Below are positions 15,001 to 18,000 of a stretch of DNA of 20,832 bases, piece after piece. Source of the DNA: a virus (Duplodnaviria; Heunggongvirae; Uroviricota; Caudoviricetes); IMG/VR virus record IMGVR_UViG_2529293138_000009, positions 1 to 20,832 of that record. One strand, 5' to 3'. The position numbers are program-made. The first letter of the stretch is position 1. The number at the start of each line of letters is the position of its first letter.

Positions 15001-18000
15001 GCTGGAAAGAAACTCAGGTGAGTGATATGGATTTCGACACAATCATGAAAAAGGCTTACGAAGAATACTTCGAAGGCCTTGCCGAAGGCGATGAAGCTCT
15101 CAGCTTCAGCGAATTTAAACAGGCGCTTTCCAGTTCGGCAAAATCTAACGGCTGATAAGCGAAACAGCACCGCGAGGAATCAGTATGCAGAAACGAGAAC
15201 CCGTCATCATCGCGCCAGATTATACCGATGATGAACTTTATGAGTGGATGCGCCAGAAAATTAATGCAGCGCAGGATCTGAAATGGGCCAATGAAGCCAG
15301 GGCTAAGCAGGCTGAAAATCTGTCCGCTCTGGAGCAGGATATCACCAATCTGGAAAAAGCAGCGGCATTAAGCATTGCCAGAATGATTACATACCCACGT
15401 TAATAGCTAACCAACGAGGCTAATAATGGAATTTGAATATTTACCAAAAGAAATCCAGACAATTGCTGCAACGACTCTCGGTGATAGTCTGGTGAAAATT
15501 GACCCAGCATACACCAAAAAAGAAACCATCGATAATATGGTTCGTAATGTGCGCAATGCTTTTTCTGGGCTATATGGTTCTGATAATCAAAAGCAGGAAA
15601 GCGATGTTAATGAACGGGTAATTTCTGTTTGCGTGAATGGCCATGTTCTTTCATCAATCAAAACAGAAACAGCGACAGTCTTCGATTGCCTTTGCGTTGT
15701 ACAGAGCCTTGTTGATGCCCTGTTTCGTTCAGTGAATTTAGAAAATGATGCAAATCTGCGAAGGCGCACAATAGCACATCCATATGCACATTCTTTAGGC
15801 TCTGTGGATATCAAAGATCCCACAAATCTTTAATGAAATAGTTAACGCGAATTGTACTTGCTCTTTCAGTTGCTTTCAGAATACGCGTTGAAACCGCTGG
15901 CGGTAATTTGGTATTCCATTTATTAAAATCATGCCCGGGAAAGTACTCTTCGAAAATACTTTTAACTGCAGACTCGCCTATTGAAATGCTGCTTACCATG
16001 CGATTTTGATAAAGGCATTTAGCAATAAGAGTTGATTTTAACATTCACCCTCCTGAGGGTTGGTAATTAAGGAGTTCTCCACGGGTGAGGTGGAGTGCGT
16101 GCGCCGGACACGGGTGAACATCCGGCACTGACAGTTTACTGAAAGGATATTTCCCTGAAAAGTCAGACCATAACGCGAAAGCGCACGGCGAGGTAGCTGG
16201 TTCATAGATAGCCTGTCGTTAAATTTTCGTCGACCGTGCGCTTCCGGTTGTGGCACTCCGCGAAATGGCGCGGCGGTAAGTATGGCGGGGTTATTCCTTC
16301 CCCGTTGAGGACACCGGGTTGTCAGGTTGACCATGCGCTTAAGTGACAACCCCGCTGCAACGCCCTCTGTTATCAATTTTCTGGTGACGTTTGGCGGTAT
16401 CAGTTTTACTCCGTGACTGCTCTGCCGCCCTTTTTAAAGTGAATTTTGTGATGTGGTGAATGCGGCTGAGCGCACGCGGAACAGTTAAAACCAAAAACAG
16501 TGTTATGGGTGGATTCTCTGTATCCGGCGTTAATTGTTAACTGGTTAACGCCACCTGGAGGCACCAGGCACCGCATCACAAAATTCATTGTTGAGGACGC
16601 GATAATGGAAACGTTATTACCAAACGTTAATACGTCTGAAGGTTGTTTTGAAATTGGTGTCACTATCAGTAACCCTGTATTTACTGAAGATGCCATTAAC
16701 AAGAGAAAACACGAACGGGAGTTATTAAATAAAATATGCATTCTTTCAATGCTGGCCCGTTTACGTCCGATACAAAAAGGATGCTGGCAATGAATACAGC
16801 ATTTGCACTTGTTCTGACAGTTTTTCTTGTTTCCGGAGAGCCAGTTGATATTGCTGTCAGTGTTCACAGGACAATGCAGGAGTGTGTAACTGCAGCAACC
16901 GAACAGAAAATTCCCGGTAACTGTTACCCGGTCGATAAAGTTATTCACATGAATAATAACGAAGTCCCGGCAGGATTAAAAACAGCACCGTAATTAATAT
17001 CCGGTTTCATTTTTATATGCCAGCAATGGCAGGGATTTGTTCACCCTTAAATCTGTAATGAGGTTAATACAAAATGAGTAAAGTCTTTATTTGCGCCGCC
17101 ATTCCGGACGAACAGGCAATAAAGGAAGAAGGTGCAGTTGCTGTAGCCACTGCTATCGAAGCCGGTGACGAACGCCGCGCCCGTGCCAAATTTACCTGGC
17201 AATTCCTGGAACATTATCCGGCTGCTCAGGACTGCGCTTATAAATTTCTTGTCTGCGAGGATAAACCCGGCATGCCCCGCCCTGCCATCGACTCCTGGGA
17301 TACCGAATATATGCAGGAAAACCGCTGGGATGAGGAATCCGCTTCCTTTGTTCCGGTCGAACCAGAATCCGATCCGATGAACGTCAATTTTGACAAGCTG
17401 TCCCTTGAAGTACAGAACGCGGTCCTGGTTAAGTTCGGTACATGTGAAAACATCACCGTTGATATGGTGATTAGTGCACAGGAATTGTTGCAGGAGGACA
17501 TGACAACATTCGACGGGCATATCGTTGAGGCATTGATGAAAACGCCTGAAATTAACGCTATGTATCCGGAACGCAAACTGTTCGCTATCGGATGGGTTAA
17601 GCACAAATGCAAGCCGAGTGCCAAATGGCCCGAAATTCAGGCTGAATTACGTAACTGGAAAAAACGGCAGGACGCAGAGCGCAAAGAGACTGGAAAATAC
17701 ACGTCTGTTGTTGATCTTGCCCGCGCCAGAGTCAACCGACAGCACACTGAAAACTCAGCAGAAAAAATCACCCCTGTCACTAGTGCCATTCGTCGCGAAT
17801 ACAAGCAGACATGGAAAACGCTGGATGAAGAGCTGGCCTACGCTCTGTGGCCTGGTGACATTGATGCCGGAAACATTTACGGCAGCATCCATCGCTGGGC
17901 AAAAAATGAAGTTATCGACAACGACCGCGAAGACTGGAAGCGTATCTCGGCATCAATGCGCAAACAGCCTGATGCCCTTCGCTACGACCGCCAGACTATT

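What the first reader, a model, noticed from the sequence alone, without database searches (positions are those of the whole stretch)
15426..16044. Uncharacterised convergent ORF pair inserted between ydfC and dicF in the dicB operon
A 135-aa ORF follows ydfC by 23 nt with a Shine-Dalgarno, so it is probably co-transcribed with the operon. A 77-aa ORF on the opposite strand has a near-perfect AGGAGG Shine-Dalgarno and overlaps the 3' end of the 135-aa ORF by about 23 nt. Neither resembles anything I recognise. I recall the ydfC-to-dicF distance in K-12 as about 550 bp versus 975 bp here (from memory), suggesting an insertion of about 400 bp. Convergent overlapping small genes could be a toxin-antitoxin-like or anti-defense cargo.
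Basis: partly seen in the sequence, partly recalled or inferred. Interest (0 to 1): 0.55.

Follow-up and report, generated by a model that had tools for sequence, protein, structure and literature searches.

The report
Conserved convergent two-gene prophage cassette
The two head-to-head overlapping small genes are real and almost always travel together in lambda-like prophages of many enteric bacteria, including E. coli O157:H7, but neither protein resembles anything known, so this is an uncharacterised two-protein module rather than a chance ORF pair.

Summary
Both ORFs exist as described: 15426-15833 (+), 135 aa, and 15811-16044 (-), 77 aa, with a 23-nt 3' overlap. Against K-12 Qin there is one clean 634-bp indel (15424-16057) holding exactly these two ORFs. 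The K-12 ydfC-dicF spacer is 340 nt, not about 550.

Both are real genes. The 77-aa family occurs in lambdoid prophages of Klebsiella, Serratia, Dickeya, Proteus, Photorhabdus, Yersinia and Salmonella. It is nearly always convergent with, and overlapping, a homologue of ORF135's C-terminal half ("P domain"): 92 of 96 loci found through ORF77 and 72 of 77 found through P. Both are under purifying selection. Outside E. coli, P is the first gene after the repressor-controlled leftward promoter, and ORF77 lies antisense to that operon.

In E. coli the ydfC-dicF slot is polymorphic. At least four unrelated cassettes of the form [variable C-domain, then a convergent small gene] occur, plus the empty K-12 allele. 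A second, unrelated pair family sits next to cI in Shigella phage SfII and Edwardsiella phage EPP-1.

No Pfam, NCBIfam, PADLOC, PDB or fold match exists. ORF77's model is very confident (pLDDT 96.8).

My best inference is a cognate antagonist pair: a lysogen-expressed 77-aa factor and an early-lytic neutraliser. Function is untested.

The parts
15404..15425 (+). ydfC-ORF135 intergenic spacer (22 nt) with a GAGG Shine-Dalgarno; the left edge of the indel lies at 15424
   Evidence: Sequence read. In the K-12 alignment, K-12 keeps this spacer but with GAGG changed to AAAG.
15426..15833 (+). ORF135 (135 aa), a two-part protein in the dicB-type early operon
   Evidence: It matches phrog_1363 at 4.7e-43. 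The AF2 model has pLDDT 64.6, with a low-confidence linker at residues 45-60.
15426..15602 (+). N-terminal module (about 58 aa, MEF(K/E)(D/Y)LPKEIQ...), shared by E. coli and Stx-phage proteins that carry quite different C-termini
   Evidence: The N-terminus alone matches phrog_9419, 2151, 6937 and 33007. P0075, P0077, P0079 and P0080 share it.
15603..15833 (+). P domain, the conserved partner of ORF77 (motifs VNG...T.TAVAADY...LE.EAN.SGKTI.H)
   Evidence: It is homologous to stand-alone 77-80-aa proteins of Serratia, Dickeya and Klebsiella phages. It matches phrog_23433. dN/dS is 0.12-0.45.
15811..15833 (.). 23-nt convergent 3' overlap holding both stop codons. ORF135 ends IKDPTNL* and ORF77 ends IKDLWDL*. 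It contains the small inverted repeat AAAGAT-N7-ATCTTT.
   Evidence: An overlap of 23, 26, 33 or 51 nt is kept in other clades.
15811..16044 (-). ORF77 (77 aa), a compact five-helix protein of an uncharacterised family, antisense to the early operon
16045..16057 (-). ORF77 translation-initiation region (AGGAGG at 16049-16054, read on the - strand); the right edge of the indel lies at 16057
   Evidence: The same sequence, TCACCCTCCTGAG|GGTTGGTAATTAAGGAG, precedes three different convergent small genes in other E. coli alleles.
16058..16130 (-). Conserved 5' flank of the convergent gene, including the hairpin or palindrome GCCGGA-N12-TCCGGC (16103-16126). This is a candidate promoter/operator region, and K-12 retains it.
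   Evidence: Compensatory changes are seen in Serratia (GCCGGG/CCCGGC), Proteus (GCCTGA/TCAGGC) and L091 (GCCTGG/TCAGGC). No consensus sigma-70 promoter was found here in E. coli.

Best explanation
The interval holds a self-contained, horizontally exchanged two-gene cassette of lambdoid prophages.

Shown:
- One gene encodes the P domain. In E. coli it is fused to a common N-terminal module to give ORF135. It lies in the repressor-controlled early-leftward operon, which is the dicB/dicF operon here and the first gene after pL in Klebsiella and Serratia phages.
- The other gene, ORF77, is encoded antisense to that operon and overlaps the 3' end of P.
- Both are conserved proteins, and they co-occur almost without exception.

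Inferred:
- The two products are a cognate antagonist pair with opposite expression regimes.
- ORF77 is made from its own promoter while the prophage is repressed.
- When the early operon fires, convergent transcription and antisense pairing shut ORF77 down, and the P protein binds and neutralises what remains.
- The most likely role of ORF77 is a lysogen-expressed accessory function, such as exclusion or defence against other phages or prophage maintenance, that would harm the phage's own lytic growth unless P switched it off. This is the logic of P22 SieB/Esc.

The slot between ydfC and dicF is a cassette site where several unrelated pairs of this design are exchanged. Exchange uses the shared N-terminal module on the left and the shared ribosome-binding region of the antisense gene on the right as recombination handles.
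For: Real genes:
- Both belong to conserved families.
- dN/dS is 0.06-0.27 for ORF77 and 0.12-0.45 for P.
- The ORF77 model is very confident.

Obligate pairing:
- 92 of 96 loci fetched through ORF77 carry a convergent, overlapping P gene.
- 72 of 77 loci fetched through P carry a convergent ORF77-family gene.
- Pairing persists in distant relatives at 32-41% identity.

Expression logic:
- In Klebsiella L010 the CI operators ACAGnnnnnnCTGT, and a TTGACC-18-TATTAT promoter, lie between the cI stop and the P start. Serratia L007 shows a similar arrangement.
- ORF77 is on the other strand with a strong SD. Outside E. coli it has a conserved upstream TGGTATCTT element and a covarying hairpin.

Asymmetry:
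- P occurs without ORF77, as in the 201-aa E. coli variants and 5 of 77 loci.
- In prophages ORF77 was never seen without P.
- ORF77-family genes do stand alone outside phages.
- P evolves faster than ORF77 in every comparison.
- The P model is only moderately confident on its own, which fits folding on a partner.

Cassette behaviour:
- The indel against K-12 is clean, and the module has low GC (39% against 47-52% in the flanks).
- Four unrelated pairs occupy the same slot.
- The three alleles that carry this flank (ORF77, 63-aa, 92-aa) have an identical right junction.
- A second pair family shows the same design next to cI in phages EPP-1 and SfII.
Against: - There is no experimental or transcript evidence that ORF77 is expressed in lysogens.
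- In E. coli no consensus promoter was found upstream of ORF77. The conserved -10-like element of the other genera is absent there.
- No direct test of P-ORF77 binding was possible.
- Tight linkage of overlapping genes would itself produce co-occurrence.
- No similarity to any defence, exclusion, TA or anti-defence family was found.
- Which partner is the 'effector' is not determined. The polymorphic variable-C-domain pattern fits the reverse assignment equally well.
Confidence: 0.4

Rival explanations
1. Reverse polarity. The P domain, and the other variable C-domains on the common N-terminal module, is an early host-takeover or toxic effector. The small antisense gene encodes its cognate antidote, made constitutively in the lysogen as a safety catch against leaky early transcription. 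This is the logic of polymorphic toxin-immunity cassettes.
For: - A conserved N-terminal module carries at least four unrelated C-domains, each followed by its own unrelated small gene.
- The operon already carries toxic products: DicF, DicB and a YdfD-like protein.
- The small partners are compact helical proteins, as many immunity proteins are.
Against: - P occurs without ORF77 in several lineages, which would leave an unguarded toxin.
- ORF77-family genes stand alone in non-phage contexts.
- No toxin-like domain or catalytic motif was found in P.
- Outside E. coli, P has no N-terminal module at all.
Confidence: 0.25
2. A regulatory unit rather than an effector pair. ORF77 would be a small nucleic-acid-binding regulator, or simply a convergent transcription unit, that limits read-through of the early-leftward operon into dicF, dicB and the recombination genes. 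P would be its early anti-regulator.
For: - The module sits directly next to the immunity region, and P is the first pL gene, in several genera.
- A covarying palindrome or hairpin lies upstream of ORF77.
- A terminator-like site follows the module on the pL strand in L010.
- ORF77 is slightly basic and all-helical.
Against: - No HTH or other DNA/RNA-binding family or fold match was found.
- Many related prophages, including K-12 Qin, do without the module, and unrelated proteins replace it. That is unexpected for a core regulator.
Confidence: 0.15
3. Two functionally unrelated accessory genes that stay together only because their 3' ends overlap and they are inherited as one short block.
For: Physical overlap enforces co-inheritance. 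There is no direct evidence of interaction. The partner's C-terminal tail is simply the reverse complement of ORF77's conserved C-terminus.
Against: - The pairing survives down to about 32-41% identity with four different overlap lengths.
- Unrelated pairs of the same design recur at the same slot and next to cI in other phages.
- Recombination does separate the N-module from P, but not P from ORF77.
Confidence: 0.12
4. One or both ORFs are non-coding chance reading frames in the dicF 5' leader.
For: Both are small, Pfam has no match, and K-12 lacks them.
Against: Both show family-wide conservation of length and motifs, dN/dS well below 1, a pLDDT of 96.8 for ORF77, PHROG families with E of 1e-43 and 1e-47, and RefSeq CDS calls.
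Confidence: 0.02

Closest known systems
P22 SieB/Esc and lambda RexAB-type prophage exclusion functions near the immunity region
   Same: These are prophage-borne accessory genes beside or inside the early-leftward operon. A lysogen-expressed product would abort or disturb lytic growth, and an early phage product exempts the phage itself. This logic is inferred here, not shown.
   Different: There is no sequence or family relation; Pfam found nothing. Esc is an in-frame internal product of sieB, not a convergent gene. Expression in the lysogen and any exclusion phenotype are untested here.
Type II toxin-antitoxin modules (for example the PaaA2-ParE pair at 14053-14578 of this same window)
   Same: Two small cognate proteins, strict co-occurrence, a mobile-element location, one partner evolving faster, and one partner predicted to be less well ordered on its own.
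   Different: The genes are convergent, so they cannot be one autoregulated bicistronic operon. There is no match to any toxin or antitoxin family. Toxicity is unknown.
Type I TA loci with convergent 3'-overlapping transcription in Bacillus prophages (txpA/RatA, bsrG/SR4)
   Same: A prophage location and convergent units that overlap at their 3' ends, so the two RNAs would be complementary.
   Different: In those loci one partner is a non-coding RNA and the toxin is a short hydrophobic peptide. Here both are conserved soluble proteins under purifying selection.
Polymorphic toxin-immunity cassettes (CdiA-CT/CdiI, Rhs-CT/RhsI)
   Same: A constant N-terminal part, exchangeable unrelated C-terminal domains, each with its own small gene immediately downstream, and sharp recombination junctions.
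   Different: These are tiny cytoplasmic phage proteins with no secretion or delivery domain. The small gene is convergent rather than co-directional. No toxin domain is recognised. Outside E. coli the P domain stands alone.
Phage morons (Hendrix-type accessory transcription units)
   Same: Presence/absence between conserved neighbours, lower G+C than the flanks (39% against 47-52%), and an antisense gene that needs its own promoter.
   Different: This is a two-gene unit with one member embedded in the host operon. No clear promoter or terminator was detected in the E. coli version.

Membership tests
Type II toxin-antitoxin system | Two adjacent genes on the same strand, co-transcribed as one operon | tested here: not met
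   The genes are convergent with a 23-nt 3' overlap. The same holds in 92 of 96 and 72 of 77 related loci.
Type II toxin-antitoxin system | Homology of at least one partner to a known toxin or antitoxin family | tested here: not met
   Pfam, NCBIfam and PADLOC gave no hits even at E up to 10. There were no PDB sequence or fold relatives.
Type II toxin-antitoxin system | One product is toxic and the other neutralises it by binding | not testable with these tools
   This needs expression and interaction experiments or a multimer prediction.
Type I TA with convergent 3' overlap (txpA/RatA type) | Convergent units overlapping at their 3' ends | tested here: met
   The overlap is 23 nt at gene level. 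Transcript ends are unknown.
Type I TA with convergent 3' overlap (txpA/RatA type) | The toxin is a short hydrophobic membrane peptide and the antitoxin is a non-coding RNA | tested here: not met
   ORF77 is predicted as a compact helical domain with no hydrophobic membrane segment evident in its sequence (no TM prediction was run). Both partners are conserved as proteins with dN/dS below 0.5.
Phage moron | Present or absent between conserved flanking genes, with deviating base composition | tested here: met
   There is a clean 634-bp indel against K-12. G+C is 39% against 47-52% in the flanks.
Phage moron | Its own promoter and terminator | tested here: inconclusive
   A conserved TGGTATCTT element with a -35-like hexamer lies upstream of ORF77 in Serratia, Klebsiella and Proteus, but it falls below the scan threshold. 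Nothing was detected in E. coli.
Known anti-phage defence systems (PADLOC) | Match to a defence-protein model | tested here: not met
   There were no hits for ORF135, ORF77, the alternative cassette proteins tested (P0038, P0079 and the 63-, 69- and 92-aa convergent proteins) or the ClpX-finger fusion. The only link is that a distant ORF77 relative neighbours an FRG/PDC-S15 gene on a Colwellia plasmid.
Known anti-defence proteins | Homology to a characterised anti-defence family | not tested
   No anti-defence library was available. PHROGs lists both families as unknown function.
SieB/Esc-type superinfection exclusion | Homology to SieB | tested here: not met
   The Pfam scan found no family for either protein.
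SieB/Esc-type superinfection exclusion | Expressed in the lysogen, aborts lytic growth of other phages, and is countered by the phage's own early product | not testable with these tools
   This needs transcript mapping and plaque assays.
Polymorphic toxin-immunity cassette | A constant N-terminal region with exchangeable unrelated C-terminal domains, each followed by its own small gene | tested here: met
   The alternatives are unrelated by hhalign.
Polymorphic toxin-immunity cassette | An N-terminal secretion or delivery domain and a recognisable toxin domain | tested here: not met
   No Pfam domain was found in any variant. Outside E. coli the P domain stands alone, without the N-module.
dicBF (Qin-type) early operon | ORF135 lies on the operon strand, close behind ydfC, with no intervening terminator | tested here: met
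   There is a 22-nt gap with an SD. No plus-strand terminator-like site was found between 15000 and 16700. Co-transcription itself is inferred.

The most novel reading that the evidence does not exclude
ORF135/ORF77 would be one member of a previously unrecognised class of repressor-proximal, convergent, 3'-overlapping two-protein cassettes in lambdoid phages. There are at least two unrelated families conserved across genera, and at least four interchangeable alleles in E. coli. The cassettes would work as a built-in two-state switch. The antisense protein would act only in the lysogen, for example as a new kind of prophage defence or exclusion effector. Firing of the early operon would silence it by convergent transcription and neutralise it with the partner protein.
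Probability: 0.3. Interest if true: 0.75.

Novelty: new variant of a known kind. Interest (0 to 1): 0.6.

Why it matters
About 12% of complete E. coli genomes (646 of 5426) carry this pair, including O157:H7, O111, O145, O55:H7 and porcine ETEC strains. It sits inside the operon that makes DicF and DicB, yet both proteins are annotated only as hypothetical.

The pairing is obligate and conserved across genera, and unrelated pairs of the same architecture recur at the same immunity-proximal position. Together these point to a general but undescribed design in temperate phages: a lysogen-state gene hard-wired to be switched off by early lytic transcription. If the antisense proteins are exclusion or defence effectors, or antidotes to early phage toxins, this slot would be a compact new source of phage-host conflict genes.

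It would also be a clear example of how convergent overlap can couple two proteins to opposite life-cycle states. In addition, the antisense unit sits upstream of dicF, so it may affect DicF/DicB expression in the many strains that carry it.

Tried and rejected
- **Family assignment failed.** Pfam, NCBIfam and PADLOC found nothing for either protein. PHROGs gave only unknown-function families. Scanning 78 family members against Pfam gave nothing. Profile searches of PDB sequences gave nothing credible.
- **Fold searches failed.**
  - ORF77 against BFVD: only one uncharacterised homologue.
  - The afdb50 library was unavailable.
- **Literature gave nothing on these genes.** There were no papers for the four WP accessions. 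Keyword searches on lambdoid hypervariable or anti-defence loci and on convergent pairs near immunity regions found nothing relevant. The dicBF paper describes only ydfABC-dicF-dicB-ydfD.
- **Canonical type II TA was rejected** because the genes are convergent.
- **Type I TA was rejected** because both partners are conserved soluble proteins.
- **An N-like antiterminator role for P was considered**, because P is the first pL gene and is followed by a terminator-like site in L010. I rejected it as the main reading: P has no arginine-rich motif, it is the fourth or later gene in the E. coli operon, and unrelated proteins replace it.
- **Common ancestry of the alternative cassettes was tested and rejected.** hhalign probabilities were below 2%.
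- **Distant ORF77 contexts were uninformative.** Metagenome contigs were mostly short or lay next to transposases. An alignment of the whole distant family was too diverse for locus retrieval, and the viral scan with the distant subset found nothing.
- **No convincing sigma-70 promoter for ORF77 was found in the E. coli sequence**.
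Full report
**1. What is in the sequence**

- ORF135 is 15426-15833 (+), ATG start, with GAGG 7 nt upstream. It begins 22 nt after the ydfC stop at 15403.
- ORF77 is 15811-16044 (-), ATG start, preceded by AGGAGG at 16049-16054.
- The two overlap by exactly 23 nt (15811-15833). ORF135 ends IKDPTNL* and ORF77 ends IKDLWDL* on opposite strands of the same stretch.
- Rfam places DicF at 16379-16430 (76.7 bits). Pfam identifies ydfA (DUF1391), dicB and a ydfD-like DUF1482 gene around the interval. 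So this is a Qin-type dicBF operon.
- RefSeq annotates both ORFs as hypothetical proteins in near-identical genomes.

**2. Comparison with K-12**

In MG1655 the ydfC stop is at 1649041 and dicF starts at 1649382, so the spacer is 340 nt. Here the spacer is 975 nt.

The pairwise alignment shows one clean gap of 634 bp, covering window 15424-16057, between highly similar flanks. The gap runs from 2 nt before the ORF135 ATG to 13 nt upstream of the ORF77 ATG. It therefore contains exactly the two coding sequences plus ORF77's Shine-Dalgarno. The block has 39% G+C against 47-52% in the flanks.

Among 5426 complete E. coli genomes, 646 carry at least 80% of the 634-bp block. They include O157:H7, O55:H7, O111, O145 and many porcine ETEC strains. 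Parts of the flanks are found in 4578 genomes. The block is also in the isolated phage Evi and in the PPompW prophages.

**3. Both ORFs are real genes**

*ORF77.* It has 77-aa homologues at 55-72% identity in Klebsiella, Raoultella, Dickeya, Xenorhabdus, Salmonella, Morganella, Yersinia and Serratia. The alignment shows 20 invariant columns. A full HMMER search of 1.84 billion representatives finds 163 clusters with E of 1e-3 or better, nearly all stand-alone proteins of 74-80 aa. Cys10 and Trp43 are the most conserved residues.

*ORF135.* It is composite.
- Its first ~58 residues (MEF(K/E)(D/Y)LPKEIQ...) also occur on proteins with quite different C-termini (P0075, P0077, P0079, P0080, and a Stx-phage PA2 protein). 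On their own they match several PHROGs.
- Residues ~60-135, the "P domain", are homologous to stand-alone 77-80-aa proteins of Serratia, Dickeya and Klebsiella phages. A profile search finds 82 relatives across Enterobacterales.
- In some Citrobacter phages the P domain is instead fused to a ClpX-type C4 zinc finger (PF06689).

*Selection.* Pairwise dN/dS, where dS is not saturated, is 0.06-0.27 for ORF77 and 0.12-0.45 for P. P is more diverged than ORF77 in every cross-lineage comparison; for L091 against L098 the identities are 95% and 76%.

**4. The two genes are an obligate, architecture-conserved pair**

In Serratia, Dickeya and Klebsiella contigs found through ORF77, the gene caller places a 77-79-aa gene convergent to it with a 23-nt overlap. 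These partners are P-domain proteins.
- Over all 96 loci then in hand (nearly all fetched through ORF77 homology), 92 have a convergent, overlapping P gene: 23 nt in 89, 26 nt in 2 and 51 nt in 1.
- The four exceptions are a contig end, two apparently frameshifted ORF77 copies, and one distant non-prophage homologue.
- Many of these loci are near-identical E. coli copies. There are 33 distinct allele combinations and about a dozen well-diverged lineages.
- In the reverse direction, 80 IMG/VR loci fetched through non-E. coli P proteins gave 72 of 77 evaluable loci with a convergent ORF77-family gene. The overlaps were 33, 23, 26 or 51 nt.
- The pairing persists in distant relatives at 32-41% identity.
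- ORF77-family genes without P were seen only outside prophages. One is in a Psychrosphaera chromosome. Another is on a Colwellia plasmid, 132 nt upstream of an FRG-domain gene that matches the PADLOC candidate PDC-S15.
- The nearly invariant Ile71-Lys72 codons of ORF77 are the reverse complement of the partner's stop region. This explains why the overlap length is stable within a clade. The partner's last ~7 residues are variable and look like a passenger of ORF77's C-terminus.

**5. Position and expression logic**

Outside E. coli the module lies directly beside the immunity region. The order is cro, then cI, then P, then ORF77 in the opposite orientation, then the rest of the early-left genes (RdgC, ParB-like, YfdP/YfdQ...).
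- In Klebsiella L010 the operator ACAGnnnnnnCTGT occurs three times between cI and cro and twice between the cI stop and the P start. There it overlaps a TTGACC-18-TATTAT promoter on the P strand, downstream of the cI terminator. Serratia L007 has TTGACG-16-TAAACT at the same place.
- So P is the first gene of the repressor-controlled leftward operon, and ORF77 is antisense to that operon. The gene order and the sequence signals are shown. That they work as operators and a promoter is inferred by analogy with lambda.
- In the window the equivalent operon is ydfA-ydfB-ydfC-ORF135-dicF-dicB. No plus-strand terminator was predicted between ydfC and ORF135.

ORF77 therefore needs its own promoter.
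- In Serratia, Klebsiella, Proteus and related phages the ~70 nt upstream of ORF77 are conserved across genera. They contain TGGTATCTT, which looks like an extended -10, preceded at 15-16 nt by a TT(C/A)ACC-type hexamer.
- They also contain a hairpin or palindrome with compensatory changes: GCCGGG/CCCGGC, GCCTGA/TCAGGC and GCCTGG/TCAGGC.
- E. coli keeps the hairpin (GCCGGA-N12-TCCGGC, 16103-16126) but not the -10-like element. The scan finds no promoter there. Expression of ORF77 in E. coli is therefore plausible but unproven.
- K-12 retains this 5' flank although it lacks both ORFs. I read this as K-12 carrying an empty or deleted allele, rather than this strain having gained an insertion.

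**6. The slot is a cassette site**

Other E. coli prophages carry different cassettes between ydfC and the same right-hand flank.
- A 201-aa protein (N-module + P + a further 66-aa "C2" domain) is convergent with an unrelated 63-aa gene, again with a 23-nt overlap. This allele is in 8 of 5426 genomes.
- A 133-aa protein is convergent with a 92-aa gene, with a 41-nt overlap.
- A 208-aa protein abuts a convergent 69-aa gene.
- Three of the alleles, including ours, share the identical right junction TCACCCTCCTGAG|GGTTGGTAATTAAGGAG. This is the ribosome-binding region of the convergent gene.
- The alternative small proteins are unrelated to ORF77, and the C2 domain is unrelated to P. hhalign probabilities were below 2%. 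The alternative proteins scanned fall in unknown-function PHROGs and have no credible Pfam hits; those scanned against PADLOC had none.

The C2/63-aa pair also exists in other genera with the same design and at the same place.
- Edwardsiella phage EPP-1 has a 62-aa gene convergent with a 121-aa C2-type gene, with a 33-nt overlap, right beside the repressor gene.
- Shigella phage SfII has SfII_36 convergent with an unannotated 68-aa C2-type ORF, with a 39-nt overlap, beside cI.

So at least two unrelated families share one architecture and one genomic niche.

**7. Structure and family searches**

ORF77 is predicted with very high confidence (pLDDT 96.8, pTM 0.86) as a compact five-helix domain.
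- BFVD returns only one uncharacterised homologue.

ORF135 is predicted with pLDDT 64.6. It shows two N-terminal helices, a low-confidence linker (residues 45-60) and a P domain made of a beta-hairpin plus a long helix at pLDDT 70-80. It has no fold relative.

Pfam, NCBIfam, PADLOC and PDB-sequence searches are negative. I found no literature on these proteins.

**8. Interpretation**

*Shown:*
- This is a conserved two-gene unit.
- One gene lies in the repressed early operon and the other is antisense to it.
- The 3' overlap is conserved.
- The unit has cassette-like population genetics.

*Inferred:*
- The two products act on each other and are made in opposite states of the prophage.
- ORF77 mRNA would be fully complementary to the early transcript that must read through it to reach dicF and dicB. 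Induction should therefore silence it by transcriptional interference and RNA pairing, while P is produced at once.

I favour the reading that ORF77 is the lysogen-state effector and P is the phage's own neutraliser, for four reasons.
- P occurs without ORF77, but in prophages ORF77 does not occur without P.
- ORF77-family genes exist alone outside phages.
- P evolves faster.
- P is less well ordered on its own.

The reverse assignment, with P and the other variable C-domains as early effectors and the small antisense genes as antidotes, fits the polymorphic N-module/variable-C-domain pattern well. It remains a strong rival. A purely regulatory role and mere linkage are less likely but not excluded.

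Membership in type II or type I TA systems, known defence systems or SieB-like exclusion was tested where possible and not met. The resemblance to those systems is one of logic only.

**9. Verdict**

It is wrong, or at least unproven, in its labels (TA, anti-defence, simple insertion).

The pair is a widespread, cross-genus module, and it is one of several interchangeable cassettes of the same unusual architecture. Function remains unknown. The proposed mechanism carries modest confidence (about 0.4) and is directly testable.

Noticed in passing
window 9304-11115 (+): A 603-aa OLD-family ATPase/TOPRIM nuclease. PADLOC 'Old' scores 9e-73, and Pfam gives AAA_15 plus OLD-like_TOPRIM. This is likely a P2 Old-type defence gene carried by the same prophage.
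   Followed up: partly
window 8664-8838 (-) and 1669-1861 (-): Rfam hits to the sok antitoxin RNA (116.9 bits, implying a hok/sok-type locus) and to the sRNA STnc100 (64 bits).
   Followed up: no
window 14053-14578 (+): A PaaA2 (1.7e-19) / ParE (4.7e-16) type II toxin-antitoxin pair sits between the repressor-like gene (13652-14086, no Pfam hit) and ydfA. It is present in some related prophages (L015, L105) and absent from others (L001).
   Followed up: partly
window 16103-16126; also K-12 (L002), Serratia L007, Proteus L017, L091: The hairpin or palindrome GCCGGA-N12-TCCGGC upstream of ORF77 shows compensatory changes across genera. K-12 retains it although it lacks the two ORFs. Whether it acts as an operator, an RNA element of the dicF leader or part of a promoter is unknown.
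   Followed up: partly
L014/L015 4001-4775; L106 3001-3640; L103 2013-2849: These are alternative cassettes at the same ydfC-dicF slot in other E. coli strains: 201-aa/63-aa, 133-aa/92-aa and 208-aa/69-aa convergent pairs. All are unknown-function PHROGs, and they are mutually unrelated.
   Followed up: partly
L206 (Shigella phage SfII, NC_021857) 2654-2860 (-); L205 (Edwardsiella phage EPP-1) 2501-3022: SfII has an unannotated 68-aa ORF, homologous to the C2 domain, convergent with and overlapping SfII_36 by 39 nt right next to cI. EPP-1 has the same pair, annotated, with a 33-nt overlap.
   Followed up: partly
L013 (Citrobacter freundii) 4001-4420 (+) and 4370-4606 (-): Here the P domain is fused to a ClpX-type C4 zinc finger (PF06689). 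The convergent 78-aa ORF77 homologue, with a 51-nt overlap, was not called as a gene in the source annotation.
   Followed up: partly
L188-L190 (Colwellia sp. plasmid-like contigs) 4001-5100: A distant ORF77-family gene without a P partner lies 132 nt upstream of an FRG-domain gene that matches the PADLOC defence candidate PDC-S15 (6.5e-72).
   Followed up: partly
window 16038-16376 (-) and 16540-16513 (-): A 112-aa TTG-start ORF lies antisense to the dicF leader and ends 7 nt inside ORF77's start. A promoter-like site (TTAACA-16-GAGAAT) lies on the minus strand between dicF and dicB and could drive antisense transcription through dicF towards ORF77. RefSeq annotates neither, and I did not examine them further.
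   Followed up: no
L019 (Photorhabdus temperata) and L099 (IMG/VR): The ORF77 homologue appears truncated or frameshifted while the P gene is intact. These may be decaying copies.
   Followed up: no
window 15426-15518 compared with O157-type alleles: The first ~31 codons of ORF135 exist in two divergent allelic forms (KEIQTIAATTLGDSLVKIDPAYTK and TPLQEMASNIVRSQLATLDLSTAE). The rest of the module stays about 98.5% identical, which indicates a recombination breakpoint inside the N-terminal module.
   Followed up: partly
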